A DNA stretch of 64,000 bases from Eledone cirrhosa (Eukaryota), in the NCBI GenBank assembly GCA_964016885.1, contig OZ024755.1, positions 40,486,001 through 40,550,000 on the forward strand, given 5' to 3'. The notes below the pieces were generated by a model. The model saw only the letters and a program-made list of their open reading frames with translations. It had not been told where the DNA came from and did not search any database. Below are positions 17,556 to 56,386 of this stretch, piece after piece; position 1 is the first letter of the stretch, and each line of letters opens with the position of its first letter. A program made the translations under genes and the position numbers.

Positions 17556-17614
<59 letters not shown>

Positions 17615-17778
17615 TTACATATATATATATATATATACAAATATATATATATATATATATATATATTTACATATATATATATATATATATACAAATATAT
17701 ATATATATATATATTTACATATATATATATATATATTTACATATATATATATATATATTTACATATATATATATATAT

Positions 17779-17815
<37 letters not shown>

Positions 17816-17954
17816 CATATATATATATATTTACATATATATATATATATATATACAAATATATATATATATATATATTTACATATATATATATATTTAC
17901 ATATATATATATACAAATATATATATATATATTTACATATATATATATATATAT

Positions 17955-18002
<48 letters not shown>

Positions 18003-18003
<1 letters not shown>

Positions 18004-19411
18004 AACAATTAAGTTAAAAATGTACATCTACATATGCATACTGAAATACTAGTATGCATATGAATACACACACGTATACATATGTAGATGTACCAAGTCT
18101 TTCACTGGTTACTTTACTGTGAGCAACCCAGCTATTCTGTATGTAAACACACAGACAAACCGGTTTTTAGAGTCATACTGGTTTTCGAGGAAACGCCTTT
18201 CCTCTATTCTCCAGAAAGCCAGACAAGGAATATTGAACTAGTTTCGTTGTTGTTACAACTCATCAGCAATATTTACCTATCTACCGGCCTTTCTGGAGAA
18301 TCGTAAAAGCACATATCGTTATATGCTTTTTCTATGAAAATTAGTAGTGGGCAGACCAATTTGCATAGATTGTGAGTACGCACCGGTTCAGCGGAGACGA
18401 TAAAAACAAATAACGAAACGAAATTAAATTTCGCTTCGTTTGTAACTCACTTTTGTATGACTGACGCTTAAACAATTAAGTTAAAAATGTACATCTACAT
18501 ATGCATACTGAAATACTAGTATGCATATGAATACACACACGTATACATATGTAGATGTACCAAGTCTTTCACTGGTTACTTTACTGTGAGCAACCCAGCT
18601 ATTCTGTATGTAAACACACAGACAAACCGGTTTTTAGAGTCATACTGGTTTTCGAGGAAACGCCTTTCCTCTATTCTCCAGAAAGCCAGACAAGGAATAT
18701 TGAACTAGTTTCGTTGTTGTTACAACGCATCAGCAATATTTACCTATCTACCGGCCTTTCTGGAGAATCGAAAAAGCACATATCGTTATATGCTTTTCAG
18801 TCATACAAAAGTGAGTTACAAACGAAGCGAAATTTAATTTCGTTTCGTTATTTGTTTTTATCGTCTCCGCTGAACCGGTGCGTCAGTCATACAAAAGTGA
18901 GTTACAAACGAAGCGAAATTTAATTTCGTTTCGTTATTTGTTTTTATCGTCTCCGCTGAACCGGTGCGTACTCACAATCTATGCAAATTGGTCTGCCCAC
19001 TACTAATTTTCATAGAAAAAGCATATAACGATATGTGCTTTTACGATTCTCCAGAAAGGCCGGTAGATAGGTAAATATTGCTGATGAGTTGTAACAACAA
19101 CGAAACTAGTTCAATATTCCTTGTCTGGCTTTCTGGAGAATAGAGGAAAGGCGTTTCCTCGAAAACCAGTATGACTCTAAAAACCGGTTTGTCTGTGTGT
19201 TTACATACAGAATAGCTGGGTTGCTCACAGTAAAGTAACCAGTGAAAGACTTGGTACATCTACATATGTATACGTGTGTGTATTCATATGCATACTAGTA
19301 TTTCAGTATGCATATGTAGATGTACATTTTTAACTTAATTGTTTAAGCGTCAGTCATACAAAAGTGAGTTACAAACGAAGCGAAATTTAATTTCGTTTCG
19401 TTATTTGTTTT

Positions 19412-19412
<1 letters not shown>
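18003..19412. mobile_element. ORF-less ~467-bp tandem HHR repeat (candidate non-LTR retrozyme), 1.7 units plus 1.2 inverted units
   Basis: Units start at 18003 and 18470, and the array is inverted from ~18797. HHR H8 at 18229-18273 (-), 18696-18740 (-, core mutated to CTGATGC) and 19074-19118 (+). Confidence 0.8.
19074..19118 (+). ncRNA. Hammerhead ribozyme family H8
   Basis: aatattg CTGATGA gttg-taacaa-caac GAAA ctag TT caatatt. Perfect 7-bp stem I, palindromic ACUAGU stem III. Confidence 0.9.
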
Positions 19413-20521
<1,109 letters not shown>

Positions 20522-20715
20522 ATTAAATAAATGGAAACTATATTTATAAAACCATATTTATTTCGTTATATATAAATATAGTTTCCATTTATTTAATATC
20601 ATAAATATACTCCAAATACTTGTTGAGTGCTTTTATATCAGTTATAAATATTTACTCGTTGTTAACCCAACAATTTAAATATAACTTTCCATATATATAT
20701 ATATATATATATATA

Positions 20716-20910
20716 TAGGAACGAGTAGGACCCCGACGGCTGAGCTCAAGCCGTTTCGACGGCTAATTGAATCCAGAATTAGCCGTCGAAAAGGCTTGAG
20801 CTCAGCCGTCGGGGTCCTACTCGTTCCTATTACCCACTCTACTACCCTAAGTATTGAGTACTTTGGTGCGTTATGGTCCACCTGGTTCCTTACCACATTT
20901 CCTTCGTTAT
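20716..20910 (+). mobile_element. Palindromic, truncated 3' end of a Naiad-1-related pLTR; duplicate at 25095-25290
   Basis: Homologous to 51266-51400. Inverted arms meet at ~20770, inside HHR H9 stem II. Confidence 0.85.
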
Positions 20911-20984
20911 ATACATATATATATATATAGAGAGAGATAGATAGATAAATATACACGGGTGTGTATGATTGTGTATAGAAGATT

Positions 20985-21165
20985 ATATTAATAAGAGGAA
21001 TTCCAACTTTGTCTGATTTACTCGTTTTATTTACAATCCCTTAAAATTTATAATGGTATTATAATGAAATAATAGTACTGTTTCATTATAATACCATTAT
21101 AAATTTTAAAAGATTGTAAATAAAACGAGTAAATCAGACAAAGTTGGAATTCCTCTTATTAATAT
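20985..21165. repeat. Near-perfect ~180-bp palindrome (end of the H11 family); duplicate at 25365-25545
   Basis: attaataagaggaattccaac...gttggaattcctcttattaat. The same arm starts the island at 28898. Confidence 0.85.
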
Positions 21166-21283: not shown

Positions 21284-21754
21284 GGGAGACATGATATGAA
21301 ACTTAAAAAACACTTGCGAGCATTGAAGTGTTAAATCAACATATGAAAAATAAAATAAGATGGATATATGAGATTGGAAAAAAGGAAAGGAAGGGGGAAA
21401 GAAAAGATAAGGAAGAGGAAGAAAAATATCATATATATATATATATATATGTGTGTGTGTCTATATATATATATATCAGTGTCTATATATATATATATCA
21501 GTGTCCATCTCTATATATATATAATTCTTTGTCTGCCTGTCTGCAAAAAGACAAAATAAAATGAACAAATAAATAAATAAATATATAAACAGACTAAATA
21601 AAGATGGCGTAGAAAATACAATGTAACGGGAGGAAACAATAGCACCACTGACGATGTTGCAGATGTACAACGAAAGAACTTTGATAAACTATATATATGT
21701 GTTTGTGTCTATATTGAATCTGTATTATTTCTGACAGTCAATGACAACATTGAG

Positions 21755-23208
21755 GACTACCCAAGTAAACACCCCAACCATCGATTACCTGTACGAGACA
21801 CAGAGCTCTGGTTAGATACCATTAATAACAAAAAACAAATCCTCCATTCCCATTATGCCAAACCCATGACTTCCAAACATCTGATCCACCGAAACTCGGC
21901 CGTTTCGGACCATACCAAAATCAACATACTGATTGCGGATTTGGTACGGGTGATGAGAAACGTGTCCCGCATGTGCAACCCCGAAGAACTAGAGAGACAC
22001 ATACAACACTTCATCCACCGTATGCAGTTATCTGGCTACAATCAGAGAGATAAAATCAGAGTGTATAGAGGAGCCAGAACCAAATGGGAAAAAATGGTAA
22101 ATAATGACATAAATGGGACCTGCCCCTAGTATAGGAGCAAATTTTGGAATAGAATAGAAAGAACTAGGAACAAGGCTAATAGAATAAACTCATGGTATGA
22201 TAGCAATAAATACCAGAGTGTAATGTTCATCGATACAACCCCTAGAGGTGAATTAGCTTACAAATTTAGAAGGGCCCTAGATAAACATAAACTCAATATT
22301 AAGATAGTAGAAAGACCAGGTACCTCCGTAAAAACACTTATTAGCAAGACATACCCTTTTCAAAGACCCTCATGTATAGATAAGAAATGTATAACCTGTA
22401 AAATAATCCCCCATATTAACTGTAAAACTAGAAATGTAGTGTATAGCATAAGATGTACTGAATGACAATGTAGAGACAAAAATATAGTGTACATAGGTGA
22501 GACAGCTCGTAGTGTAGGGGAACGGATAAATGAACACTGGCGAGACCTTCAAGATAGTAAAGAATCATCTGTACTCTACCAACATGCTAAAATAGAACAC
22601 AAGGGTAAATTAGAGAACAGAAATAAAAATAGAATCTACACACAGAAAAGACGCAATGTTTAGACAAATCACAGAGGCAATAAACATAAAAGAATTACAA
22701 CCAAAATTAAATAGAAAATATGAGTGGAACAGCAACATCACAACTTACAATTAAGGACAAAATGGAAACACACACACACATAGAAAAAACAACCAACCAG
22801 TAACATGTAAATAGACAAATAAATAAATGAACATAAACACACACAGACACCCGGATGTGGCGCATGCGCAGACTGAGCGCATGACACACACACAGAAACA
22901 AAATGGCGTAGGACAGAACAAAGGAGAGGCACAAAAACAAAGAAAGGAATCCCCAGTCACTGAAGAGGTCACAGAGTGTGTGACGAAAAAACTATGACAT
23001 TATATAAACAACTATCTGTTTGTGGAACCAACCAACCAACCAGAAACTTATAAATTTATGAATTTATTATAAATTTATTATAATAAATTGAAGTGAAAGC
23101 AACTGGTGCGTGTGTTTCTTATTGGCAACATGACCCTCCCAAAGTATAACAATATCGGTTTCAACACACGATTTCAGATAAAGAATCTTGCTAAACAAAT
23201 TCAGAAAC

Positions 23209-23210
<2 letters not shown>
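21755..23210 (+). mobile_element. 5'-truncated Penelope-like element: RT thumb plus GIY-YIG endonuclease pseudo-ORF (21755-~22750) and HHR-bearing 3' repeat
   Basis: DYPS..P..RLPV.D..LW, HYAKPM.S, SGY, CKTRNVVYSIRC...YIGETARSVGERINEH. Stops at ~22127 and ~22463. H1 HHR at 22955-22998. Ends in (TA)n. Not Naiad-like; possibly Nematis-like (uncertain). Confidence 0.85.
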
Positions 23211-23265
<55 letters not shown>

Positions 23266-25022: not shown

Positions 25023-25098
<76 letters not shown>

Positions 25099-25567
25099 AA
25101 CGAGTAGGACCCCGACGGCTGAGCTCAAGCCGTCTCGACGGCTAATTGAATCCAGAATTAGCCGTCGAAACCGCTTGAGCTCAGCCGTCGGGGTCCTACT
25201 CGTTCCTATTACCCACTCTACTACCCTAAGTATTGAGTACTTTGGTGCGTTATGGTCCACCTGGTTCCTTACCACATTTCCTTCGTTATATACATATATA
25301 TATAGAGAGAGAGAGAGATAGATAGATAAATATACACGGGTGTGTATGATTGTGTATAGAAGATTATATTAATAAGAGGAATTCCAACTTTGTCTGATTT
25401 ACTCGTTTTATTTACAATCCTTTAAAATTTATAATGGTATTATAATGAAATAATAGTACTATTTCATTATAATACCATTATAAATTTTAAAGGATTGTAA
25501 ATAAAACGAGTAAATCAGACAAAGTTGGAATTCCTCTTATTAATATATATATATATATATATATATA

Positions 25568-27407: not shown

Positions 27408-27958
<551 letters not shown>

Positions 27959-28179: not shown

Positions 28180-28229
<50 letters not shown>

Positions 28230-28332
28230 CATATTGTTATACTTTGGGATGGTCATGTATAACAAAGTATAACAATATCGGTTTCAACACACGTTTTCAG
28301 ATAAAGAATCTTGCTAAACAAATTCAGAAACG

Positions 28333-28389
<57 letters not shown>

Positions 28390-28397
28390 CATATGTA

Positions 28398-28854
28398 TAA
28401 CAAGCAAATTATAAATGTAAACATGTAAGTATGTTTTTGAAACGGTGCGCGAGTTTGAAAATTAAAAATTAGAAATTATAAGCTTTCACCGTATTTTAGA
28501 CTAAAGAAATTTCTAGCCTGATAGTGGGGTTTATAACCCTCGGAGAAATGGAAAAAGATGAGTGTTGCCGTACATGGGAGTCGAACCCACATCTTTGGTT
28601 ATCCAGACCAATTTGCTACCATTACACCAATACACATCCCGTCTCCTTCCATTCGAATTAGAAGATGTGGGTTCGACTCCCATGTACAGCAACACTCATC
28701 TTTTTCCATTTCTCCGAGGGTTATAAACCCCACTATCAGGCTAGAAATTTCTTTAGTCTAAAATACGGTGAAAGCTTATAATTTCTAATTTCTAATTTTC
28801 AAACTCGCGCACCGTTTCAAAAACATACTTACATGTTTACATTTATAATTTGCT

Positions 28855-28856
<2 letters not shown>
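28398..28856. mobile_element. Palindromic insertion in (TA)n containing a tRNA-like head (28567-28637, minus)
   Basis: Arms 28400-28594 and 28663-28856. Minus strand reads tggtgtaatggtagca...ttggt-ctggata-accaa...gtggg-ttcgact-cccat, with an imperfect acceptor stem. Confidence 0.7.
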
Positions 28857-29490: not shown

Positions 29491-29496
<6 letters not shown>

Positions 29497-30515
29497 GTTC
29501 AAGATGTACATCCATATATGTATACTGAAATACTAGTATGTATATGAATACACACACGTATACATATGTAGATGTACCAAGTTTTTTTTCACTGATCACT
29601 TTACTGTGAGTGGCCAGCTATTCTGTATGTAAACACACAGACAAACCGGTTTTTAGAGTCATACTGGTTTTTGAGGAAACACCTTTCCTCTATTCTCCAG
29701 AAAGCCAGACAAGGAATATTGAACTAGTTTCGTTGTTGTTACAACTCATCAGCAATATTTACCTATCTTCCGGCCTCTCTAGAGAATCGTAAAAGCACAT
29801 ATTGCTATATGCTTTTTCTATGAAAATTAATAGTGGGCAGACCAACTTGCATAGAGTGTGAGTAAGTACCGGTTCAACGGAGACGATAAAAACAAATAAC
29901 GAAACGAAATTAAATTTCGTTTCGTTTGTAACTCACTTTTGTATGACTGACGCTCAAACAATTAAGTCAAAGATGTACATCCATATATGTATACTGAAAT
30001 ACTAGTATGTATATGAATACACACACGTATACATATGTAGATGTACCAAGTTTTTTTTTCACTGATCACTTTACTGTGAGTGGCCAGCTATTCTGTATGT
30101 AAACACACAGACAAACCGGTTTTTAGAGTCATACTGATATGTGCTTTTACGATTCTCTAGAGAGGCCGGAAGATAGGTAAATATTGCTGATGAGTTGTAA
30201 CAACAACGAAACTAGTTCAATATTCCTTGTCTGGCTTTCTGGAGAATAGAGGAAAGGTGTTTCCTCAAAAACCAGTATGACTCTAAAAACCGGTTTGTCT
30301 GTGTGTTTACATACAGAATAGCTGGCCACTCACAGTAAAGTGATCAGTGAAAAAAAACTTGGTACATCTACATATGTATACGTGTGTGTATTCATATACA
30401 TACTAGTATTTCAGTATACATATATGGATGTACATCTTTGACTTAATTGTTTGAGCGTCAGTCATACAAAAGTGAGTTACAAACGAAACGAAATTTAATT
30501 TCGTTTCGTTATTTG

Positions 30516-30520
<5 letters not shown>
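29491..30520. mobile_element. Second locus of the ~468-bp tandem HHR repeat (1.4 units plus an inverted part)
   Basis: aattaag unit starts at 29491 and 29960. H8 at 29715-29759 (-) and 30180-30224 (+). Differs from the 18-kb locus by many substitutions, but the HHR is unchanged. Confidence 0.8.
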
Positions 30521-32733: not shown

Positions 32734-32853
32734 CTACTAATTTTGAATAAAATTCTCATTGCTTTTGACAACAGCTGGTGATGTGCATGTAAGTATAGGT
32801 TGCTGACGATAGCTAATAAGCTTGAAACTAGTACAGCGTTCCTTTGTTAGTCT

Positions 32854-35025
32854 TTCTACTGAGATAGGCTCCGACATGTTACCTCCGACATTAACCCAAG
32901 CCTTCATGTCGTCATGGAAAGACCTAACTAAAGCAAGGAACTTATCAGGGCAACCAAGTTTCTGGAGAACCTTCCATAATGCATCTCTGTTGACAGTATC
33001 GAAAGCCTTTGTCAGATCGACAAAAACCTGATACAGATCCAAGCCCTGTTCAATGCACTTCTCCTGGAGCTGTCTAGCTGAGAAGATCATATCAGTAGTG
33101 CCGCGTCCAACACGAAAACCAGATTGACTTTCAGGAAGGACACAATCTGCAATGTGTGTCAGCAGACGGTCCAGAAGCACCCTACATAAAACTTTCCCCA
33201 CGACAGAAAGCAATGATATACCTCTGTAGTTCCCACAATCATTCCTGTTACCCTTTCCCTTGTACAAGACCACCATTACCGCATCTCTCCAGTCCTCAGG
33301 CACGGATTCATTAGCCCATATCCTTCCAAACAGAGAGTGAAGATGTTGCAGGAGTCTCTCACCACCATATTGTAGGAGCTCAGCATGTATGCCATCCATA
33401 CCTGGAGATCTTCCACTGTTCAGCTTCGAAATAGCCACTGCAACCTCCACAAGTGTCGGAGGCTCTGCGAGAGCTACTTTCACAGGACTTTCCGGAATGA
33501 GATTGAGGAAATCTTCACTGACGACAGACGGCTGATTCAAAAGATCATCAAAGTGCTCCCGCCACCTTCGTAGAATTCCCTGTGAGTCACGAAGAAGTTC
33601 TTTGCCATCCCTGCTGCGAATCGGTGTCACCAGAGAAGAAGACGGTCCATAAACCTCACGCAAGAGACTGTACAACAGCTTTGTGTTATTGCAATCAGAC
33701 GCAGTTTGTATCTCACCAGCCTTCTCACTCCACCACTGATCCTTCATCTGAGAAAGACTCCGCCTAACACGTGATTTTACATCCCTGAGCTCCTCATGCA
33801 ACGTATTCCTCTCCTGTGGTCTTGCCGTCAAGTAGCGTGACAGAGCGCGCCTCTTATCAGCCAACAAGTCATCTATATGCACATCTTTCTCATTAAACCA
33901 GTCCTGATGTTTTCTCTGCACCAATCCCAGAACACGTCTGCCTACATCATAAACCGACTTTTTAAGGGTCGGCCAATCCTCACCAAGATCTGCAGCCTGC
34001 ATCTCTTCTTCCAATGTCCTCTTCACATTTTTATCCTTAAGACGAGCAGCATTCAATCTTTTGGGCAGGGTAACACCAGGAGCCCGGATTTTACGTTTGG
34101 TGATTAGATTCACTTTTGCGCGTACCAGGCGGTGGTCCGTCCAGCACTCAGCTCCACGAAGAACACGAACACACCGCACATCCTGTCTGTCACGCATCCT
34201 GACTAGGACGTAGTCCAAAAGATGCCATTCCTTAGATGCAGGATGCATCCATGTGGTCTTGAATTTGTTCTTTTGTTGGAACATGGTGCTGGTAACACAC
34301 AGATCCAGCTCCTCACACATCTGCAGCAAGAGCATACCATTGCTGTTACACTTTCCCACCCCATGCCTTCCGATTACATTCCATGTGTTAAAATCCCTAC
34401 CCACTCTAGCATTAAAGTCACCAAGCACGATGACCTTGTCTGCCTGAGGGATATTTCTTAAAACACCTTTCAAGGCATGGTAAAAGGACAGTTTTTCTTC
34501 ATCGACAGAATTCATAGTTGGAGCATACACACTCACCAGGGTAGCATATCTTCCCTTGTCCAGCGGAACTCTCATGGACATAAGACGCTCACTAATCCCC
34601 ACTGGGAATTCTTCCAATTTATTCACCAGTACAGTCTTAACAGCAAATCCTACCCCAGCCTCTCTTCTGGTTCCTTCATCTCTTCCTTTCCAGAAGAATG
34701 TATACTCTCCACAAAATTCCGTAAGATGACCATCTCCAGCTAACCTCGTCTCAGACAAAGCCACGATGTCAAGATCGTAACGTCGAAGCTCCTTCGCAAC
34801 AAGAGCGGTCCTTCGTTCAGGACGCTCCAAAGAATCCCTGTCAAGCAGCGTCCGTACGTTCCAGCAGCCAAGACTAAATGCCCTGTTTGGCTCTATTACA
34901 ATGGCACGATGACGGGCGGGCCCAGGTTGTGATAACTTGGGGCCCCTGCCCTTATTGCCAATGATCCCTTTTGTTCCAGAACCCAAATTGGCAATTATCT
35001 CGTTTACATTGTTCTGGAACATCAT
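32854..35025 (-). CDS. RTE-clade LINE ORF (AP endonuclease plus N-terminal part of RT), 3'-truncated
   Basis: WNVRTL, ALSETR, YAPT, GDFNARVG, TDH, PGMDG, NYRGISLL, ESQSGFR and FVDLTKAFD. Homology stops at EPISVE, before the GVxQG and YADD motifs. The N-terminal 70 aa of the listed 832-aa ORF are microsatellite read-through. Confidence 0.9.
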
Positions 35026-35345
35026 TGAATTGGGAAAAAAAAAAAAAAAAAAAAAAAAAGTAATAATAATAGTAATAATAATAATAATAATGATTTCATT
35101 TATTGGCCACAAGGGCCGACATATAGGGGACAACACAATAGACAGGGACAGTGGGGGTTTACATAGAGATCGAGTAAGTATAAATAACAAAAAAAACAAA
35201 ATAACAATAAAAATACAACAATGAAAGTTCCCCAATAAGAGGGATCACCACCCAGGGTTGACTCAAGCACCCCACCAGTCCTGAGCCACCCGACGCTCCT
35301 AGGGCACCCGGGAAGGGCACCCCTCTCCTTCTCGAATTCACCAGC

Positions 35346-38300
35346 CTACAGGCGCATGATCAGAGTAGGCCCACTCACGCGGGCCATTCTCGCCACATTC
35401 ACCCACCTTTCAGTAAATGTACTGGGGGGCAGCACTTCTCTCTCCACCCTCACCTTCCTTTCCAAGTGAAACTTGAAGAAGTTGATGAGGGATTGGCCGA
35501 AGAGAAAAGTGTCTGTCTTCAGTCCTTTCAACCTGGTCCACCATGCAACCTCTTTCGCTACTGCCACCAGGCAGAGGAAAATTGCCTGCCCTTCCTGACC
35601 AAAAGAAGGCGGCGGGTCAATCTTCACTATGGACTCGGACGATAGCCGGATCCGTTCTACACGCGACAATAGCTGTTCGACATAACCCCACAAGTCAGCA
35701 ATGCACGGACACTGGACGAGTGCGTGCAGAACGGTTTCGTCGCTCTGCGCGCATCTCGGGCAGGTTCGTCTGACAGCACTTCCGTGCCTGTAGAGTTTAT
35801 CCCGAACCGGCAGCGCCCCCCGGTAGCACTGCCAAGCGAGGGATTTCTGGAAGTTATCCATCGTCCCCGGCTCGAAAGTCCTCCGGAACATACTGGTCAG
35901 TTCTACTTCGTTGACGCCCAGAGCCTCTCCTAGTACGTCATCGCACTTGCCCTCCACTAATCCTCTATAGAAATCTTGAGTGGAAGTTCCACTGACCGCA
36001 TTGCCCACCTTGCAGAGTGCAGTGAGCGCCTGGCAACATTCCAGATGCCAGTCGCCCAGTCTCGGTCTCTTCTTGACCCAGGACTGCAGCTCAGTCAAAG
36101 AGATGAGCTGCGGAAAGGCCCGTCTAACAAACGGCGACCACACCTGTTCACCGTTTAGGCAAAATATCTGGAGATGTCGCAGCCTCAGCGCATGTCTGCG
36201 CATCATTAGCCACGGCATGCCCAGCCCTCCACGAAGAGGGTGCTGGCAGCAGATGGACCGCCTCACCAACGGGACCCGTCCCCTCCACAAAAATTTGAAA
36301 AGGAGCCGTTCCAAATTGGCGAGGCGTGGACGGGGGCAAGGCACGACGGTCAGGCGGTAGTAGATGACGGACGCGATGTACGCGTTCGCCACCTCCGCCC
36401 GCCCTTTCAGTGATAGCTTTCTCTCAGCCCATTTCTGGGTGAGGTTGGCTATCCTGCTCGTCACCTCGTCCCAATTCTTATCCACCTGGAGGTCTGGTCC
36501 GAACCAAACCCCGAGCAACTTTACCGGTCCGTCTGTCCAGCGCCCAACGACGCTGTTGGACGGCATGGACTTGCCTCTCCAGGTGCCGAGCTGCAAGCCC
36601 ACCGACTTTTCCGGGTTAAGTTTTGCTCCCGTCAACCTTTCATATTCCTCCAAATGGGTGCGGATCACCTCGATTTCCGAGGTGTCCGACACCATCACGG
36701 TGATGTCGTCCGCATAAGCGGACGCAGCCTTTCTACGTCCCGGTTCGAGCGGGATGCCCTGCAACAACTCCAGCTTCCGCAGTAGAGGCTCAAGAGTCAA
36801 TACGTACAGAAGTGAGGAGAGAGGGCACCCTTGACGGACCGATCGAGAGATCTGAAACGGTTCCGAGAGGTGGCCATTAACTTTGACCACCGAGCGGATG
36901 CCGCTGTACATTGCAGCGATCCAGCTTCTGAAGACGGGGCCGAAGCCAGCCGCCTCGAGGACAGCCTCCAAGTACCGATGGTCGACCCTATCGAATGCTT
37001 TCGATTGATCTAAATTGATCAGAGCCCCACCGAAGCCAGGTTTGCACCCAACCCTCTCTATGATGTATCGCATGAGGTGGAGGTTGTCGTGTATGGACCT
37101 GGTCGGGATTGCGCAAGTTTGCGCCTCCCCAACCAAATCTTTGACGACAAGCGCCAACCTTTTCGCTAACACCTTGGCCAAAATCTTAAACTCTGTGTTG
37201 AGCAGGGTTATGGGCCTGAAATTATCTAGTGTGTCCCTCTTGTTCTCGTCTTTCCTTATCAGCGTCACTACGCCACGGCTCACAGAACTGGGAATGCTCC
37301 CGTTCTGCTGCCAGTTGCAGTAGAGCGCTTCGAGGAGATCGGAGAACAAGTCTGGCATATTTACGTAAAGCTCGTAGGGCAGACCATCCAAACCGGGTGA
37401 CTTGCGACTCGAGCAGCCGACAAGGGCGTCCTGAATTTCGGCTGATGTTATCGGCTCTTCGCAGCGCTCAGCGTCGGCCGTCGAGAGGCGTGGCAAGCCG
37501 TCGAGGTAGGGACTGAAGTCCGCCGCCGTCTCCGACTCACCCATCCTCCCGAACAATCGAGCAAAGTGCTGGCGAAAGGCCTCACACATCCGCTTGGAAT
37601 CGCTCAGTTCGTGTCCATCTCGATCCGTCAAAGACCGAATTGTGGTTTTATTTCCACGCTGCGTCTCTGCAAAGCGAGCCCATCGGGCAGCTTTGGTTCC
37701 CTCGTTCCTCAGAGCACGCGCCTTAGCTCTGACAATGCAACCTTCGTGTTTCGCATTGAAGAAATGGTCTAGTGCCATTCTCGCCGCTAGCACGTCTGTT
37801 GCAATGCCACTACAAATAGCCTCGTCTAACTTAGCTATCAGCCCCTCCTCCTTTCTATTTTTCTCTATTGCTACTTCTTTGCTAAATCCTATCGAGGTTG
37901 CTCTAATCTCTCTTTTGAGTGCCCCCCACCACCTGTTGTTGACAACCCCCCCTGTCAACTTTTGCTTAACTAAGTTGTTGACCCGGTCCCTGTAAGCTTT
38001 ACGTGCCGGAAACGACATGTTTAGCTTCCAGTAGCTAGGTCCTAACCTACGTGTCTTATCTAGGTCGACCATACAGATCACAAGCTTGTGATCTGAATAG
38101 GCAACCGTTTTAAAATGTGGACATCCTACACTATTTCTATCTCTTTTCCTAATGAAAATCCTATCTATGTACGATCTAGATGACCCTATGCGATTGGTCC
38201 AGGTCCATACTGGCGCATTAGGGAAATCTAGTCGGTACCTGTCAGACAGTTGAAACTGGCTGATCAGGTACTTGAGGCTTTTGCACCCCCCGCTCCTATC

Positions 38301-38765
38301 AGATACTCCCACACAATCCCAGCGTGCTTCTAAGATGCCATTCCAATCCCCTATTAACAGTAAAGGGCGAGACGTAAGCAGAAAGTTTTCCAGGCGCCTA
38401 AAGAAGTCCGGCCGACCGGCCCCAGTAGGGGCGTAGACGGCCACCAGTCTAAAGGCACCACCTTCGCTATTGCTCACGTCCAGGACCACCAACTTTCCGT
38501 CAGGATCCCGGAAGATTGACCTTACCTCGAGATCCAGACATTTCCTAAACAGCACAGCCACTCCACCTCCCATTCCCGGCCGACTAACAGATGCAAAGAT
38601 CTGATAATCGTCGAAAATCGGCGCCAGTGCGCGTGTGTCGGAAATTCTGGTCTCGCTGATGGCAATTACATCCATTCCTAGTGACCTGAGGTCGTTGAGC
38701 AAGTGACCTTGCTTCCAGGGCGACCCCAGGCCACGAACATTTAAACTTCCTACTCTTATGGCCAT
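35346..38765 (-). CDS. LINE ORF2p: AP endonuclease, reverse transcriptase and C-terminal Zn finger (1139 aa)
   Basis: SLNVRGL, GDWN, SDH, PGLDG, RPITLLNTEFKIL, LDQSKAFDRV, QGCPLS, YADD and CPRC..H...C, uninterrupted. Confidence 0.97.
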   Translation of the reverse strand: MAIRVGSLNVRGLGSPWKQGHLLNDLRSLGMDVIAISETRISDTRALAPIFDDYQIFASVSRPGMGGGVAVLFRKCLDLEVRSIFRDPDGKLVVLDVSNSEGGAFRLVAVYAPTGAGRPDFFRRLENFLLTSRPLLLIGDWNGILEARWDCVGVSDRSGGCKSLKYLISQFQLSDRYRLDFPNAPVWTWTNRIGSSRSYIDRIFIRKRDRNSVGCPHFKTVAYSDHKLVICMVDLDKTRRLGPSYWKLNMSFPARKAYRDRVNNLVKQKLTGGVVNNRWWGALKREIRATSIGFSKEVAIEKNRKEEGLIAKLDEAICSGIATDVLAARMALDHFFNAKHEGCIVRAKARALRNEGTKAARWARFAETQRGNKTTIRSLTDRDGHELSDSKRMCEAFRQHFARLFGRMGESETAADFSPYLDGLPRLSTADAERCEEPITSAEIQDALVGCSSRKSPGLDGLPYELYVNMPDLFSDLLEALYCNWQQNGSIPSSVSRGVVTLIRKDENKRDTLDNFRPITLLNTEFKILAKVLAKRLALVVKDLVGEAQTCAIPTRSIHDNLHLMRYIIERVGCKPGFGGALINLDQSKAFDRVDHRYLEAVLEAAGFGPVFRSWIAAMYSGIRSVVKVNGHLSEPFQISRSVRQGCPLSSLLYVLTLEPLLRKLELLQGIPLEPGRRKAASAYADDITVMVSDTSEIEVIRTHLEEYERLTGAKLNPEKSVGLQLGTWRGKSMPSNSVVGRWTDGPVKLLGVWFGPDLQVDKNWDEVTSRIANLTQKWAERKLSLKGRAEVANAYIASVIYYRLTVVPCPRPRLANLERLLFKFLWRGRVPLVRRSICCQHPLRGGLGMPWLMMRRHALRLRHLQIFCLNGEQVWSPFVRRAFPQLISLTELQSWVKKRPRLGDWHLECCQALTALCKVGNAVSGTSTQDFYRGLVEGKCDDVLGEALGVNEVELTSMFRRTFEPGTMDNFQKSLAWQCYRGALPVRDKLYRHGSAVRRTCPRCAQSDETVLHALVQCPCIADLWGYVEQLLSRVERIRLSSESIVKIDPPPSFGQEGQAIFLCLVAVAKEVAWWTRLKGLKTDTFLFGQSLINFFKFHLERKVRVEREVLPPSTFTERWVNVARMARVSGPTLIMRL

Positions 38766-38794
38766 GCTGGCAGGATGAATGGGAGAGGAAAGGT

Positions 38795-40657
38795 TTACTT
38801 ACCTTCCGGGGTCTTGTGAAGGTCGGGTGGTTCGACCTCCATGGTTTGTGGGGTTTCTTTTGGGAACCCCTTTAATAGTCTTGACGTGGGTTTTACGTTC
38901 GGGGTTCCCACATCCCGAGGAAAGCTCTTTCGAATTTCTTTGTATGAAGCGAGCGACATTCGCATCAGAAGCAAATTATCTGGTACGCGAAATGTGCTCG
39001 CTTCAAATGTTTCCCCGTCTTTTTCGATGTTTGTGCTTCGTGCTACATGGGCCATCAATTCCTTGTTGGCCCTTCTGGCGAGCACGAAGTTTTTAATGTT
39101 TTGTTGCTCGGGTTTTATTTGTTCGTGTGATTGTGGTGGTGATAGCTTTGTTAGTGTTGTTTCTATTGTGTCTGCGTTTGTTGTGGGTGGGGTGTCTGTA
39201 GTTTCTGATGTTTGTGTGTCTATTTGTTCTTGTGTCTGTTTAGCTTGTTTGCGTTTGGGGGATTTTGGTGGTTGTGTTGGTGATGCTGTGGGGAAAATGT
39301 TTGTGTGGGTGGTGTGTGTATTTTGTTTTGTGGGGGTGTTTGTGCTTTGTGGATTTCTTTTTTTTTTGTGTTTTGTTTTTTGTATTTTGGGGGACTTTGG
39401 TTTTCCCTCATCTTCACTGCTGGAGGATGAGGGGTCTGTGGCTGTGAGCGTGTTTGTGTCTGAGTGAGTGTTTATGTTCTTGTTCGTGTGTGTATTTTGG
39501 GGGGGAGGGGGAATGGGAGAGCTTTCCTCGTTTCCCCCCTGGGTGTGCAATTTTGGTGGTTCCATTGTTGACGGTGTTGCTGGTGGTCCTTGTCCCGGCG
39601 TCGCCAGCAGTGGAATCTTTCGACCCCTTGCGCTTTTCGGCAGTTGAGGGCAGAAGGCTCGCAAGTGTGTCGTTTCCCCACAAAGGAAACAATGCGGCCT
39701 TTTGCCCTCAGTCATTATATGCAACACCCTCCCGTTTTGGAGGCGGATGTGGTCCGGGATTGCTTTCACGTTTTCGGGTCTGATTTGGAGCAGTATCTCC
39801 AGATCAACCCCGGACCAGTCGTCCCTGGCAGTTCTCGTTGCCTCTACCGGGACTGTATCCGTTCCTTCCACGATTACGCAACCCAGGAGCCACCACATAT
39901 CAAGTCCTGGTGGAATCCTGGGAATGCGCACACGTGCTATTCGTTTTCCCATGTGGGAGGGGTACATTATGACCTTGCTGGTTTTGCAAGGGGTCATTGA
40001 ATGCTTCACAGCGAGGGCTTCAGACTTGAACAGCACCGAAACGGTGCCGTATTGCCTGCCCCTCTCTATGAAGTCTGTGTCCTCTCTGATGTATTTCAGT
40101 GCGGCTTCTATGTCAGCTTGGGCGATTATCGCTGCCCTCTTTGTCTCTACTGAGATGCATCTGAAATGCACCGTTCTTTTTTCCACTGCCTCAATGGCTT
40201 CTGCCGGGACAGTTAAGTTTGCCCAGGTCTGCTCTTGATTTATGATTTTCCAGGCCTGGGCCAACTTTTCCTCTCTGTTGGTTAAGTCGATGCTGTAGCA
40301 TGGTCTCCTTTTAGCCGCTGCCACAGCAGCGAAAGTGTTCTTGTTGGTGTTGTCACTGTTGTTGTTCTTGTTGGTGTTGCTGCTGCTATTGCTGTTGTTG
40401 TTCTCCCCTGTGTCGTGGTTACCTTCTGTGCTGTTGGCCTTGTTGGTGCTCTCGCTATTACCACCTTCTGCGCTGTTCGGCTTGTTGGTGTTGGTGTTGT
40501 CGCTGTTACCACCTTCCGCGCCGCTCGGCCCGTTGGTGCTGGCACTGTCGCTGCTCACATTCGTGCTGGTGGCGCTCCTCGCCTCACCTCTCCTCTCAAC
40601 GCTCAAGTCGCCGTTGCACGACAGCAGACCCGCCTCTAGGGGGCGTGGCTCCGCCAT
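38795..40657 (-). CDS. LINE ORF1p (gag-like nucleic-acid-binding protein, 620 aa)
   Basis: Immediately upstream of ORF2. CCHC knuckle CFLCGETTHLRAFC and low-complexity N/T/K-rich linkers. Confidence 0.9.
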   Translation of the reverse strand: MAEPRPLEAGLLSCNGDLSVERRGEARSATSTNVSSDSASTNGPSGAEGGNSDNTNTNKPNSAEGGNSESTNKANSTEGNHDTGENNNSNSSSNTNKNNNSDNTNKNTFAAVAAAKRRPCYSIDLTNREEKLAQAWKIINQEQTWANLTVPAEAIEAVEKRTVHFRCISVETKRAAIIAQADIEAALKYIREDTDFIERGRQYGTVSVLFKSEALAVKHSMTPCKTSKVIMYPSHMGKRIARVRIPRIPPGLDMWWLLGCVIVEGTDTVPVEATRTARDDWSGVDLEILLQIRPENVKAIPDHIRLQNGRVLHIMTEGKRPHCFLCGETTHLRAFCPQLPKSARGRKIPLLATPGQGPPATPSTMEPPKLHTQGGNEESSPIPPPPQNTHTNKNINTHSDTNTLTATDPSSSSSEDEGKPKSPKIQKTKHKKKRNPQSTNTPTKQNTHTTHTNIFPTASPTQPPKSPKRKQAKQTQEQIDTQTSETTDTPPTTNADTIETTLTKLSPPQSHEQIKPEQQNIKNFVLARRANKELMAHVARSTNIEKDGETFEASTFRVPDNLLLMRMSLASYKEIRKSFPRDVGTPNVKPTSRLLKGFPKETPQTMEVEPPDLHKTPEGK

Positions 40658-41751: not shown

Positions 41752-42121
41752 CCCCTTCCCTTTTCTTTTTTCTTTTCCCTTCCTTTTTTTTTATGTTTTG
41801 ATGCCGCTGTTGTTGTTGTTGTTGTAATTGTTGTAAATGTTCATATATATATATATATACATACTACTGTACGTCTGTATACATATATGTATGTACGTAT
41901 ACATACTTATATTTAAGTAACAGCCGTACTAAGAGTGGGAAACGAAATTTCGTTTCATTTTTTCCGTTTATGTATATGTATATATATGTATATATATATA
42001 TATATACATATATATACATATATATATATACAAATAAATATATGAGAGGGGGGGGGAACACTGATACAAGTATACATGTGTTCTCATTGCAAATGACCAA
42101 GTTAACTAGGCTGAAAAATAC

Positions 42122-47677: not shown

Positions 47678-47727
<50 letters not shown>

Positions 47728-49099
47728 CGAAGGAAATGTGGTAAGGAACCAGGTGGACCATAACGCACCAAAGTACTCAATACTTGAGGTAGTAGAGTGG
47801 GTAATAGGAACCAGTAAGACCCCGACAGCTGAGCTCAAGCCGTTTCGACGGCTAATTCTGGACTAAATGAAAATTTATCCTGGTATTTAAATAGCCGATC
47901 TTCTCAAGGGGAATTCCATATATGGTCAAAGTGATTGTCAAGAATCAGTAGTAATTCTGTGATTGCAAATTAGTAGGGGAGATGGTGGCTAAACCTGCCA
48001 GTAGGAGAAAGAGGGGAGGGGGTGGAGTAGACCCAATCAAGCGTTGGTAGTGCCAGCTACAGCTGGGCATGAGGTCAAAGAAGATACTGGGGAGGGGGAG
48101 GGGCAGGAAGTCGGAACGGTAGGTAGAACAATGGGGGGTAAAAATATATATGAAAGAAAAAATACTGAGAGTGAAGAAAAGCGAATAAGTGTAAAGAAAA
48201 AAAAAAAAAAAAGAAAAAAAAGTAAAGCAAGTTCTACGACCTAGGTCTCTAGTTATTGTTAGGCTAGAATAAATAAATAAAGAAAGAAAGAAAGAAGTAA
48301 AGAAATAAATAAAGAAATAACGAAATAAGTAAAAGAACTAGGTGGGACGGAATAGGCAAGGACCCTTTTAAGAGGTATAAGTACGTAAATGATACGGTGA
48401 CGGGTCAACAAAAGGGGCCAAAATACTAAAGAGACTACCACGAAATAAATAATAAAGGTTTCTATCCCGGGTACAATGCCAGCAACCACCCAGTGCAGCA
48501 AAGTGAACTAGTACGAGATAATAATTCTGAGTCCCGAAAAAAATATATACTAATGCTAACTCTAAAAGATCTAAAACAAGCTACATGAAAGTTCGTACGA
48601 AGTAAAGGTAGAATACGGAAAAATAAATTCAGAATCCACCCCGCCCAAAAGAAAAGCGAAGAAAGAAATACTGAAACGAAAAAATAAGGCATAAGTGCCA
48701 CTAAGAAATATAGAAGGCACGGAGAATAGTGGGAGCGGTCGGAAAAAGGGGGCAAGTATCCGGGGTCTAAACCAACTGCTATAAAAGGCGGAGTCCGCCA
48801 AATCTATCATAGACTAGGGGAGGGGGTGGGGATACTAAGGCTACAAAGGGCCAAAGGGCAGCCTCGGGTGGGCGAGAAAAGACGCCGACAAAGGAGAAGA
48901 GCTGGGGTAGAAGGACTAAGGAGAGATGGGGGGAAGGAAATAAAGGAAGCGATAAAAGAATAAAAAGAAGATCTTACGTCTCCCTTGGCAAGCAGGGGTT
49001 ACCCATTGCAAAATCGGCAAGTGGGGTGTTATAGCCCTAGTCTACCCCCCCCCCCCCCCCCCCCGGGTCATTATGGGGTTTGAGGGCGAGGTAAGTCCT

Positions 49100-51174
49100 A
49101 CGCAATCTATGTTTACATGCAGTAACCAGTTCATCGTTCTTGTTTAGGAGTTAGTCCGTCGAAAACAGCATTTGTAAAGTTTCCTCCGAGCATAAATTGC
49201 ACGGACGGCGTCCTCCCGTGTAAGAATTGGCTCTGGACAGTAATCTCCAAGTGAGATCATAGGTGATGTTGTTGTCCTTGAGGTCCCATATGTGGCCCGA
49301 AAGTGTAGTGGCGTGACGCCGGGCCGGGTTTCGGAAGGTATGTCTATGTTGGTATAGCCGGGTCTTGAAGTCACATGCGGTAAGTCCTATATAGGCTTTG
49401 TTGGAGGTATCCGTCCTCACGTTGCACTGGTAGATCACATTACGGTCTCTGCATCTATTGTCGAGTGGGCAAATGGATCTATCCGGACAGTTACACCTCC
49501 TGGTTGGTTCTCCACTGCTATTTAGGTTATTTCTGCCATCGGGGTTGAGTTTTTTGTTGTTAGAGGAGACGATGTTTTGTGCGAAGTTTGGTGTAGTGCT
49601 GTAAGAGAGTTTGATGGTATTTTTGTTAATTATGTTGTGGTAGCGGTGTTGTAATGGGAAGTATTTTTCAATGAGCCTAAAGAATAGTTTCCCGATGGGA
49701 GTTGTCACCTCTGCGTTGTGGGGAGGATTGAACCATGTTACATTGCGTGAGCGGCGGTGTCTCCTGCTGGTTCCGCTAATGGGAGCTGGACAGTAGGATA
49801 TTTCCTCCCGGAAACCACTCCGCTTGAGGGCCTGGTTGTAATAAGGCGCATGTTCATCGAATATCCGCTCATTAGCTGACAAACGGGATATGCGGAGGGA
49901 GATGTTTTTGACCAGGTTGTTTGTGATGTTTCTAGGATGGTTTGATCGGCGGTGGATGTAGTGCAGATTGTCATTAGGTTTCCTGTATGGGTAGTACAGG
50001 TCGTTTTCGAGGTCGAGGGTCACGTCCAGGAAGTTTACTCGGGTCAGGGACGTTTGTAGGGTTATTTTAAATCCCCAGTCGCGGAAGAATCTGATTAATT
50101 GTTTCCGGACCCGATCTGTACTACATCACGGTACAATCCACCACCGAATGCAGGAAACATATCAGTGAGTTTGGCTATTAGGAATAATCCTATAAGATCT
50201 GTGACCTCCGCCGAATCCGTGGCGCCCATGCTGATGTCGAAGGGTGAGTCGGGAGCTCTTTTTATCCATTTAGAGTCGTCAAAGAGTAAGACTATCTTCC
50301 TGGCGTGGAGGATGATTTTTCTTTCCTGGTCGGTGATGGGCACAAGTGTTTCGGCGAAGTCCAAGGCGGCAGTAAGTAGTGGTAAGGTGATTGAAGCATA
50401 GTAGCTCTCTATGTCGAACTGTATGAATTTAGTGTCTCGTTTATCCTCCATATTGCTGAACCATGAGATTACTTCCTGGGTGTTGATCCATAGGCTAAGT
50501 CGGGCGTATTGCTTGACTTTTGGTATCACGCGGTCTAGGATTTTTTTGCTGATTCTCCCTATGTCGGACTTCGTTGGGTTAATAAGCCTGATAGAGGGTT
50601 TACGGTCAAAATCGGATTTATGGTCCTTCAGTGTGAAGTATGGTGTCCGTGGGTCTAGAGGTTCCGTGCGGTCGGCGACCCCGAGGCTGGAGGTAATTTG
50701 TTGTCCATCTCGATTTATGTCCTCGATGCAAGAGTGGTTGGCCTTTTTATAGGTGGAGTTTAGGCTGCTCCTGATCAGTGTGTGGTATCTGTCAGGGTTG
50801 ACAAAGTATAGGTTCCCAGTTTTATCCGAATGCACCATGATGTCATTTGTGTTATCATACTCTGTTAAGTTGCTACGGAGTTTTTGTAGGAATCGGTTGT
50901 GTCTGGGTTTAAATTTAATGTTCTTGACCAGTTGGAAGAGGTCATTCTCGAAGGGTGAGAGCAAGGGGTTCGGGGGCGGAGATTTGTAGGTAATAAATCC
51001 GAATCTCTCCTTGGTGCCGAAGTCTTGGTTGTCGCAATATCTGTCATAGAAAAAAGTTCTCCATCTAAGTCTTTTCGCAAATAGATCGATTTTTTGCGTG
51101 AGCATCCGAAGGTAAAGTTTTTTCGGTGGAATTGGGATGTTCTTGGTAGAGAAGTCAATGTTGTGTTTTCGCAT
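49100..51174 (-). pseudogene. PLE RT plus GIY-YIG endonuclease ORF, disrupted
   Basis: FSTKNIPIP..LRWR, DKTGN, TLKDHK, RLINPTKS, FDIESYY, MGATDSAE, LYRD, NFLDVT, WFNPP, CNC..CPL..C, VIYQC..YIGLT..FKTR..H and CNLC. A deletion/frameshift follows LYRD (~50125), and TAA at 49151 precedes the conserved LLNK..E....CKH. Confidence 0.92.
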
Positions 51175-51910
51175 GGTGCGGGTGAAATGAAATGAGCTCA
51201 GCGGAAAAGTCTGGATACGGCGTGGTAGGGTCGGAAAGTGCTCTACTACGGGAGTAGGAGCTAGATAACGAAGGAAATGTGGTAAGGAACCAGGTGGACC
51301 ATAACGCACCAAAGTACTCAATACTTGGGGTAGTAGAGTGGGTAATAGGAACCAGTAAGACCCCGACAGCTGAGCTCAAGCCGTTTCGACGGCTAATTCT
51401 GGACTAAATGAAAATTTATCCTGGTATTTAAATAGCCGATCTTCTCAAGGGGTAATTCCATATATGGTCAAAGTGATTGTCAAAAATCAGTAGTAATTCT
51501 GTGATTGCAAATTAGTAGGGGAGATGGTGGCTAAACCTGCCAGTAGGAGAAAGAGGGGGGGGTAGACCCAATCAAGCGTTGGTAGTGCCAGCTACAGCTG
51601 GGCATGAGGTCAAAGAAGATACTGGGGAGGGGGAGGGGGGGGGGGGAAGTCGGAACGGTAGGTAGAACAATGGGGGGTAAAAATATATATGAAAGAAAAA
51701 ATACTGAGAGTGAAGAAAAGCGAATAAGTGTAAAGAAAACAAAAAAAAAACATGCCCAGCTGTAGCTGGCACTACCAACGCTTGATTGGGTCTACTCCAC
51801 CCCCTCCCCTCTTTCTCCTACTGGCAGGTTTAGCCACCATCTCCCCTACTAATTTGCAATCACAGAATTACTACTGATTTTTGACAATCACTTTGACCAT
51901 ATATGGAATT

Positions 51911-52004
51911 ACCCCTTGAGAAGATCGGCTATTTAAATACCAGGATAAATTTTCATTTAGTCCAGAATTAGCCGTCGAAACGGCTTGAGCTCAGCTGTCG
52001 GGGT
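51911..52004 (+). ncRNA. Hammerhead ribozyme family H9 (U3-A8 core); element-sense copies at 51360-51453 (-) and 47819-47911 (-)
   Basis: acccc TTGAGAA ga(t)cggcta-[long loop]-tagccgtc GAAAC ggc-ttgagctca-gct GTC ggggt. Copies at 20.8 and 25.2 kb have gcc in place of gct in stem III. Confidence 0.8.
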
Positions 52005-52126
52005 CTTACTGGTTCCTATATATATATATATGTATATATATATATAATATATATATGTATATATATATTTATATATATAATATATATACGTATATATATA
52101 TATATTTATATATATAATATATATAC

Positions 52127-52216: not shown

Positions 52217-52413
52217 AAAATTATATAAATCAACAAAGAAGCCTTTAATACATTAAAAATCTTTATTCGCTGACAATGTTTCGTCCCAGTAATTAGGACT
52301 CTTCAGAGCAAGGAAAAGACAACAAATATCAACGGCTAGAACAAGCCAAAATTCAGAAGAATAGAGAAATAGAAGAATAGAAATTTAAATGTTACATTAT
52401 TAGATATAATATG

Positions 52414-56329: not shown

Positions 56330-56386
<57 letters not shown>

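What the first reader, a model, noticed from the sequence alone, without database searches (positions are those of the whole stretch)
18003..19412. ~467-nt head-to-tail ORF-less HHR repeat: candidate non-LTR retrozyme or circRNA
Seen: the unit repeats directly with no ORF between units and one HHR (H8) per unit. The same junction (gactgacgct(t/c)aaacaattaag) occurs at the diverged second locus 29491-30520, where the HHR is unchanged while the flanks differ. Established: metazoan non-LTR retrozymes are tandem repeats of a few hundred nt whose HHRs release monomers that circularise, and they are thought to be mobilised by PLEs. Inference: the tandem state is intrinsic to the element (reverse transcription of a circular template), not a local duplication.
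Basis: partly seen in the sequence, partly recalled or inferred. Interest (0 to 1): 0.8.

Follow-up and report, generated by a model that had tools for sequence, protein, structure and literature searches.

The report
Ribozyme repeat with Penelope insertion footprint
A 467-base non-coding unit carrying a hammerhead-ribozyme motif sits in TA microsatellites as two opposed arms with fixed, unequal ends, a footprint that likely means a Penelope-type jumping-gene enzyme copied it from RNA at both sides of the cut, and whether that RNA is a circle is untested.

Summary
The 467-nt ORF-less unit and its hammerhead (HHR) are real, but 18004-19411 is not a plain head-to-tail array. It is a fold-back: 1.7 units on the minus strand joined head-to-head to about 1.3 units on the plus strand, with both 3' ends in (TA)n. 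One arm stops at unit position 1-4, the other about 70 nt further on (a 'tail'). The locus at 29491-30519 has the same design. Both TA junctions recur in whole-run contigs. Of 18 TA-bounded fold-backs in the window, 17 are one-sided like this, including an RT+GIY-YIG Penelope-like element (PLE). This is the PLE insertion signature, explained in vitro by two internal RT start sites and extension of both target strands (PMC11167929). The HHR has canonical type I geometry and family variants fit its helix II, so the unit works like a retrozyme. It fails one retrozyme criterion at both loci (no two consecutive intact HHRs). Verdict: a non-autonomous, retrozyme-like PLE passenger, likely inserted by two-ended priming. 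A circular template is about 55% likely and untested; the partner PLE was not found. Interest 0.45.

The parts
17556..18003 (.). Left (TA)n-rich target array
   Evidence: sequence
18004..18470 (-). Left arm, full 467-nt unit (u1-u467); its 3' end (inner start site, u1) abuts (TA)n
18213..18284 (-). Type I hammerhead, intact core (CUGAUGA at 18266-18260, predicted cut between 18236 and 18235)
18471..18797 (-). Left arm, upstream partial unit (u1-u327), 2 private substitutions
18680..18751 (-). Second hammerhead copy with core change A9 to C at 18727
   Evidence: 34.9 bits
18797..18797 (.). Head-to-head inversion junction of the two arms (about 1 nt overlap)
18797..18883 (+). Right arm, 87-nt re-copied segment (u461-u375), joined to the next segment through a 4-nt overlap: likely RT template switch
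18880..19343 (+). Right arm, main segment (u464-u1), identical to the left unit
   Evidence: 0 differences in 464 nt
19063..19134 (+). Third hammerhead copy, intact core, predicted cut after 19111
19344..19411 (+). One-sided 'tail' (u467-u400) with a 13-bp hairpin; its 3' end (outer start site) abuts (TA)n
   Evidence: (overhang 67 nt)
19412..20523 (.). Right (TA)n-rich target array
29491..30136 (-). Second locus, left arm (u4-u467, u1-u177), inner end in (TA)n; HHR core 29752-29722
30136..30519 (+). Second locus, right arm (u314-u1 plus tail), outer end in (TA)n; HHR core 30187-30217
   Evidence: (overhang 71 nt)

Best explanation
This is a protein-free, hammerhead-bearing 467-nt mobile unit that lies in TA microsatellites as two head-to-head arms ending at two fixed sites about 70 nt apart, and it is likely inserted in trans by a Penelope-like element's reverse transcriptase-endonuclease, likely priming from both cut target ends on an RNA that is probably (about 55%) a ribozyme-cut and rejoined circle. 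Steps. SHOWN: ORF-less unit; fold-back layout; two fixed 3' ends, one per arm; (TA)n on both sides; variable 5' ends; all four arms run through the predicted cut site with intact sequence; each arm holds sequence the other lacks in that order. INFERRED from PMC11167929 (a lizard PLE protein cuts and extends both target strands and starts at two internal RNA sites that bracket the tail): the enzyme cuts both strands of (TA)n, one 3'-OH starts copying at the outer site and the other at the inner site, and the two cDNAs are joined at their far ends with 0-1 nt of overlap. INFERRED, weaker: each site is used once because both ends are primed on one RNA molecule, which would explain the one-tail-per-insertion rule and the near-identical arms. 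PREDICTED, untested: the HHR (likely dimer-activated, since helix III is 2 bp with a palindromic loop) releases monomers from tandem transcripts, these close into circles, and RT runs more than once round.
For: Layout and ends. Recurrence outside the window: a TA-run loose end at the outer site (18400) in 11 contigs of run X1 and 1 contig of X5 (another organism label), and at the inner site (18474) in 3 contigs of X1; 990 contigs were laid in X1. Internal control: 17 of 18 TA-bounded segments with a terminal inverted repeat (56 segments examined) are flush at one end and overhang 59-211 nt at the other. After removing 2 duplicated segments this is 15 of 16, binomial p 2.6e-4 against independent site choice; also dropping one 27-nt arm gives 14 of 15, p 4.9e-4. 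One of these is an RT+GIY-YIG PLE at 47726-52016 (tail 81 nt; Atlas neighbours carry HTH_animal, GIY-YIG, RVT_1; DKT and CxCx5C motifs match the Hydra clade description). Arms differ by 0-3 changes within a locus against 28 in 461 nt between loci. HHR: helix I 7 bp, helix II 4 bp with a 6-nt loop, helix III 2 bp, the canonical metazoan geometry of PMC4209133. Family reads show complementary changes on both sides of one helix II pair (18247 and 18258; 403 of 552 and 410 of 578 plus-direction reads in X21; linkage on one read not shown) and a GUU to GUC variant at the cut site (186 of 526 plus-direction reads in X21; 8 contigs in X1). Family substitutions break 3 of 40 predicted sense-strand pairs against 12.1 +/- 2.3 expected, and locus 2 breaks 2 of 23 against 7.7 +/- 1.7, p 0.001. 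The depth-weighted share of laid contigs that runs on into unlike sequence is 0 in X1, so most copies are not joined to an ORF.
Against: No partner PLE with these termini was found: no convincing nucleotide match to the window's PLEs and best tblastn E 0.058 over 8 aa (the middle of the output was cut), no assembly held, 0 hits in four collection scans. Against the circle: the window copies have a GUU triplet (weaker than GUC, recalled); neither locus has two intact HHRs in tandem; ORF-bearing PLEs in the window are also partial tandems; the lizard PLE inserts from uncut RNA; 8 of 9 Xenopus retrozyme dimers did not cleave in vitro; both private substitutions of locus 1 fall in the upstream 327-nt partial unit, which mildly favours a linear template with a diverged upstream copy. 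The in vitro study saw no difference in start site between strands, so the one-site-per-end step is not explained by it. The structure test is not independent of the sequence it was folded from, the antisense fold is also preserved more than chance for the read variants (10 broken against 16.0, p 0.013), and my strand-neutral G.U versus A.C count was inconclusive (14 against 9, p 0.20, with some sites counted twice). 102 loose ends and 43 variant rows were not shown. One of 18 fold-backs is symmetric, and not all 18 were shown to be PLE-derived.
Confidence: 0.7

Rival explanations
1. Same PLE-driven two-ended insertion, but the template is a linear, uncut multi-unit transcript from a tandem source locus; the HHR is slow or needs protein, and no circle is involved. 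This rivals only the template step.
For: Uncut RNA is the main substrate for the lizard PLE, and its HHR cuts only with protein present. 8 of 9 Xenopus dimers did not cleave. ORF-bearing PLEs in the window give the same partial tandems. Both private changes of locus 1 are in the upstream partial unit.
Against: The left arm plus the outer site of locus 1 needs about 860 nt of template with two HHRs left uncut, although this HHR type is activated by a second copy. The HHR is canonical in geometry and its variants fit helix II. Units with such HHRs give circles in coral, mussel and axolotl.
Confidence: 0.4
2. The unit is only the 3' terminal repeat (pLTR) of an autonomous PLE, and these loci are 5'-truncated stubs chained by template jumps.
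For: The window holds such stubs of an ORF-bearing PLE (20717-20914, 56389-56577). Retrozyme families in Xenopus match PLE termini. Hidden loose ends could hold an ORF junction.
Against: Both loci run from the tail end straight back into the same unit at the same base, giving the same period (467 and 469 nt), which random truncation would not do. Contigs of X1 and X4 bridge that point or end at it in TA, depth covers 30 of 30 bins, and the share running on into unlike sequence is 0-0.02.
Confidence: 0.1
3. Only one end is target-primed; the inverted arm is made by the first cDNA folding back and copying itself (self-priming, as proposed in PMC3846280).
For: Arms within a locus are 99-100% identical. 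The model was proposed for PLE palindromes.
Against: At locus 2 the left arm holds u315-u396, which the right arm lacks, while the right arm ends in a terminal tail the left arm does not have beyond its own primed end. Locus 1 has the same two-way excess. Simple fold-back would need an extra exact jump that recreates the native junction and the family's fixed outer end at both loci.
Confidence: 0.1
4. Local DNA duplication and inversion inside an unstable microsatellite, or an assembly artefact.
For: Both flanks are long (TA)n arrays, and long palindromes are hard to assemble.
Against: Two loci 7% diverged share both ends but differ in inner breakpoints. The same ends meet TA runs in independent contigs, in two organism labels. 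Other families in the window follow the same rule.
Confidence: 0.03

Closest known systems
Insertion unit of endonuclease-bearing Penelope-like elements (PMC8557442, PMC3846280, PMC11167929)
   Same: Partial tandem, adjoining inverted 5'-truncated copy, one-sided tail, HHR in the repeat, (TA)n target (as in the Hydra and Naiad clades), two fixed internal ends.
   Different: No ORF at all; the unit closes on itself with a 467-nt period; the tail is about 70 nt, not 30-40; no partner element identified.
Metazoan non-LTR retrozymes (PMC7229834; bioRxiv 10.64898/2026.07.22.740005)
   Same: Short AT-rich (36.6% GC) non-coding unit, canonical type I HHR geometry, strong self-pairing, more-than-unit copies, proposed dependence on PLEs.
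   Different: Only 0.8-1.7 units per arm, in opposed arms; no two consecutive intact HHRs at these loci; slightly longer than the 150-450 bp quoted; fixed ends, tail and inversion are not described in the parts I read; cleavage and circles untested here.
Non-autonomous Chlamys PLEs such as MRC1 of Chlamydomonas (PMC8557442, passage)
   Same: ORF-less PLE passengers that form pLTRs and multi-copy head-to-tail insertions.
   Different: Green algae; most Chlamys lack HHRs; they share 3' sequence with known autonomous families, which was not shown here.

Membership tests
Non-LTR retrozyme | Short non-coding repeat unit, under 50% GC, no LTR or ORF | tested here: met
   467 nt, 36.6% GC; no Pfam hit, longest stop-free stretch 72 aa. 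Length is just above 150-450 bp and inside 51-972 bp.
Non-LTR retrozyme | Canonical type I HHR geometry (helix I about 6 bp, helix II 4 bp, short helix III with palindromic loop) | tested here: met
   Rfam score 38.6 is below the gathering score 52; predicted MFE of the motif -8.5 kcal/mol
Non-LTR retrozyme | [quoted passage not shown] | tested here: not met
   Locus 1: second HHR has A9 to C; locus 2: one HHR per arm. Other loci in the genome could not be examined.
Non-LTR retrozyme | Self-cleavage of the transcript | not testable with these tools
   needs in vitro assay
Non-LTR retrozyme | Monomeric linear and circular RNA in vivo | not testable with these tools
   no run on record as RNA was available; contigs cannot show a circle
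Non-LTR retrozyme | Target-site duplication where present | tested here: inconclusive
   both flanks are (TA)n, so a duplication cannot be read
EN+ PLE insertion unit | Partial tandem (pLTR-like) arrangement | tested here: met
   1.7 and 1.4 units in the left arms
EN+ PLE insertion unit | Adjacent inverted 5'-truncated copy, head to head | tested here: met
   junctions at 18797 and 30136
EN+ PLE insertion unit | Tail on one arm only, between two fixed ends | tested here: met
   67 and 71 nt; both ends recur in contigs; longer than the published 30-40 bp
EN+ PLE insertion unit | AT-rich or (TA)n target | tested here: met
   4 of 4 arm ends
Autonomous PLE | ORF for RT plus GIY-YIG endonuclease | tested here: not met
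   none in the unit; not filed as an autonomous PLE
Non-autonomous PLE derivative | Terminal sequence shared with an identified autonomous PLE | tested here: inconclusive
   no match to PLEs in the window; no assembly; scans empty; 102 loose ends hidden

The most novel reading that the evidence does not exclude
A true retrozyme circle is the template, and a PLE enzyme dimer primes both cut ends of the target on that single circle, once at each of two sites 70 nt apart, rolling in parallel. The genome would then hold the direct insertion footprint that ties animal retrozymes to PLE machinery, and the strict one-tail-per-insertion rule would reveal a coordinated two-site priming step general to PLEs.
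Probability: 0.3. Interest if true: 0.7.

Novelty: new variant of a known kind. Interest (0 to 1): 0.45.

Why it matters
Which enzyme moves animal retrozymes is still argued from co-occurrence and terminal similarity (PMC7229834; the 2026 preprint). This unit has retrozyme-like RNA features and also carries the PLE insertion footprint, which points to PLE machinery from the insertion itself. It offers a compact 467-nt substrate with mapped start sites, with which two open points can be tested in an existing in vitro PLE system: circle versus uncut linear template, and whether the two target ends use different start sites on one RNA. The ingredients are each known, so the surprise is moderate.

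Tried and rejected
No whole genome is held, so copy number, end statistics for this family and the partner PLE could not be obtained. Collection scans with an HHR motif and a tail motif found nothing (metagenome; viral 38; genomes 64). Sequencing runs: no RNA holder listed; this says nothing on expression. Run X4 is small and of unrecorded kind; I did not treat it as RNA. In RAD run X21 the piles of read ends at 18339/18342, 18358, 18425, 18427 and 18477 all fall on AATT sites (sequence), so I rejected them as library digestion ends (enzyme identity recalled). Summed contig depth of about 1-7 x 10^5 in X1 suggests a high-copy family but is not a copy number. Rfam at gathering level found no HHR; the microRNA hits are AT-hairpin noise far below threshold. 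HHR geometry does not separate retrozymes from autonomous PLEs here: the ORF-bearing element at 52218-56331 also has a 4-bp helix II HHR (Hammerhead_1, 23.9 bits), and the motif at 22960 gave no Rfam hit. The strand-neutral wobble test was inconclusive. The idea that RT stalls at the inner site on its second pass fits the two switches at u461-u464 of locus 1 but not the 5' ends at u327, u177 or u314; dropped. A search for ORF remnants in the unit gave nothing. No earlier scan notes exist for this place or sequence.

Full report
What is there. Call the 467 nt at 18004-18470 u1-u467. BLAST and pairwise alignment resolve 18004-19411 into two opposed arms. The left arm is u1-u467 then u1-u327 (18471-18797). 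The right arm is the reverse complement: u461-u375 (87 nt), a jump through a 4-nt overlap back to u464, u464-u1, then u467-u400. The HHR marks the sense strand: minus in the left arm, plus in the right. Both 3' ends therefore point outward into long (TA)n arrays and the 5' ends meet at 18797. The left arm ends at u1. The right arm ends about 70 nt further along the unit (overhang 67 nt). The locus at 29491-30519 is about 93% identical and has the same design: left end at u4, right end at u400, overhang 71 nt, but other inner breakpoints (u177, u314). One of the three HHRs of locus 1 has a core change (A9 to C, 18727), so no arm here has two intact HHRs in a row.

No coding capacity. The longest stop-free stretch in the unit is 72 aa, with no Pfam match. 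tblastn with the window's PLE proteins gave nothing better than E 0.058 over 8 aa. The sense unit folds into a row of hairpins, -164 kcal/mol, z -9.55 against 100 shuffles. Both arm ends lie in unpaired U-rich stretches just 3' of a hairpin in that prediction.

The family outside the window. No assembly is held. I laid 4 of 23 listed runs on a permuted unit. In X1 (990 contigs laid) all 30 bins are covered. Loose ends made of TA runs occur at the outer site (18400, 11 contigs) and the inner site (18474, 3 contigs); X5, another organism label, shows the outer junction in 1 contig. The depth-weighted share running on into unlike sequence is 0 in X1, 0.01 in X4 and 0.02 in X5, and none of the 18 loose ends shown looks like an ORF junction; 102 were not shown. 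Most copies are thus ORF-less, but a rare autonomous relative is not excluded. The read-end piles in the RAD run X21 fall on AATT sites and were rejected as library artefacts.

The ribozyme. Helix I is 7 bp, helix II 4 bp with a 6-nt loop, helix III 2 bp with a palindromic loop. Rfam's best ribozyme match is Hammerhead_HH9 at 38.6 bits, E 7.7e-8, under the gathering score of 52. This is the canonical metazoan geometry and not the minimal PLE form with a 7-8 bp helix II (PMC4209133). Family reads carry complementary changes at both sides of one helix II pair (403 of 552 and 410 of 578 plus-direction reads in X21; linkage not shown) and a GUC variant of the cut triplet (186 of 526). Of the 40 variant rows shown (43 more were hidden), 3 break a predicted sense-strand pair against 12.1 +/- 2.3 at random. 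Of 23 locus-2 substitutions (the indel cluster at u94 and u121-u124 left out), 2 break a pair against 7.7 +/- 1.7. Against over-reading: the antisense fold is also spared for the read variants (10 against 16.0, p 0.013), though not for locus 2 (7 against 9.3, p 0.16); the structure comes from locus 1 itself; variants are related by descent; and a strand-neutral wobble count was inconclusive (p 0.20).

The internal control. Of 56 segments between (TA)5+ runs, 18 have a terminal inverted repeat. Seventeen are flush at one end (10 nt or less) and overhang 59-211 nt at the other; one (28389-28856) is symmetric. Two are duplicates of others, leaving 15 of 16 (p 2.6e-4 if each end chose its site independently), or 14 of 15 without a 27-nt arm (p 4.9e-4). 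Some overhang lengths are blurred by simple repeats, and not all 18 were shown to be PLE-derived. One is an element at 47726-52016 with a frameshifted RT-GIY-YIG frame whose DKT and CxCx5C motifs fit the Hydra clade, described as (TA)n-targeting with canonical HHRs (PMC8557442). It is a partial tandem with an 81-nt tail, and its short stubs use the same two ends (end classes L and M). A second related element at 52218-56331 has the same layout with a tail of about 97 nt; internal TA runs kept it out of the automatic count. The 467-nt unit shares the architecture but not the sequence of these elements.

Mechanism. Published PLE insertions are partial tandems with an adjoining inverted copy and a one-sided 30-40 bp tail (PMC8557442, PMC3846280). 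A purified lizard PLE protein cuts and extends both target strands and starts copying at two internal RNA sites that bracket the tail (PMC11167929). I infer that a PLE enzyme acting in trans cut (TA)n, primed one end at the outer site and the other at the inner site, and joined the two cDNAs head to head. Simple fold-back copying is disfavoured because each arm holds sequence the other lacks in that order. Arms within a locus differ by 0-3 changes against 28 between loci, and tails occur once per insertion; both fit a single RNA molecule serving both ends, which is inference. All four arms cross the predicted cut site intact (five crossings) and none of their 5' ends lies there, so a cut linear monomer was not the template at these loci. 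It was a rejoined circle or an uncut multimer. For the circle: canonical, apparently maintained HHR; exact one-unit period; circles from similar units in coral, mussel and axolotl (PMC7229834). For the uncut multimer: the lizard PLE uses uncut RNA; 8 of 9 Xenopus dimers did not cleave; ORF-bearing PLEs are partial tandems too; both private changes of locus 1 sit in the upstream partial unit. I put the circle at about 55%. The rival confidences address different steps and do not sum to one.

Comparison and novelty. It works like a non-LTR retrozyme but is not filed as one, because the two-intact-HHR criterion fails at both loci and cleavage and circles are untested. It meets the four tested features of a PLE insertion unit but has no ORF, so it is best filed as a non-autonomous PLE-type element of unknown partner. 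That retrozymes derive from PLE termini is already proposed (2026 preprint), and ORF-less PLE passengers are known in algae. I did not find a description of a retrozyme-type unit with the inverted arm and one-sided tail: searches; 'inverted' has 0 hits in PMC7229834, and 'tail' has 0 in the preprint. The library lacks most subscription journals and Repbase, so this is a limited negative. Other notes of this scan report similar fold-back PLE stubs in other genomes; they are unchecked leads and not support. The host is not given; an octopus-like mollusc is my recalled impression from the SINEs and was not tested.

What I read. PMC11167929: parts 1-2 of 4 (abstract, main text, start of methods) and passages. 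10.64898/2026.07.22.740005: parts 1-3 of 5 (main text) and passages. PMC4209133: parts 1-2 of 4. PMC7229834: parts 2-3 of 6, the Discussion and passages. PMC8557442: passages and section 11. PMC3846280 and PMC13282606: passages only. No figures or supplements were seen.

Verdict. Observation partly confirmed, interpretation partly supported. New variant of a known kind, interest 0.45.

Noticed in passing
window 47726-52016 (minus strand): Hydra-clade-like PLE: RT and C-terminal GIY-YIG frames split by a frameshift near 50100-50125, 3541-nt unit plus partial copy, inverted arm of 266 nt, 81-nt tail; stubs at 20717-20914, 25096-25293, 56389-56577. My HHR scans found no core in its repeat.
   Followed up: partly
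window 52218-56331: Second Hydra-like PLE (about 40% protein identity to the first), decayed ORF lacking a clear endonuclease part, HHRs at 52306(-), 53441(+), 56145(+), tail about 97 nt, SINE inserted in the inverted arm.
   Followed up: partly
window 21524-23211 and stubs at 2493-2696, 27410-27844, 28224-28334: Another PLE-like element (C-terminal zinc-finger and GIY-YIG-like motifs by eye, Neptune-like by recall, no Pfam hit) with an HHR-like motif at 22960 and two fixed ends about 60 nt apart.
   Followed up: partly
window 28389-28856: The only symmetric fold-back of 18; its arm holds a tRNA-like segment (Rfam tRNA 36.2 bits at 28569-28633).
   Followed up: no
window 18164-18183, run X21: 112 reads from a single start carry seven T-to-C changes in 20 nt, i.e. 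an A-to-G cluster on the sense RNA strand. It could be an edited RNA fixed by retrotransposition or one artefactual molecule.
   Followed up: no
window 18234, run X1: One contig folds back within 2 nt of the predicted HHR cut site, as expected if some copies came from a cut RNA or pivoted on the local palindrome. Single contig.
   Followed up: no
window 20718-21161 and 25097-25542: A 446-nt block holding two different fold-back stubs is duplicated at 97% identity.
   Followed up: no
window, 17 of 18 fold-backs: Overhangs in this genome are mostly 60-95 nt, about twice the 30-40 bp tail given in the papers read.
   Followed up: partly
window 41855-41963: Weak likeness (66% over 124 nt, E 0.085) to the unit's 3' part, ending in a similar hairpin and T run before a TA array; possibly an old relative.
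   Followed up: no
window 32737-38798 (minus strand): Two LINE-type frames with AP endonuclease and RT domains (834 and 1150 aa).
   Followed up: no
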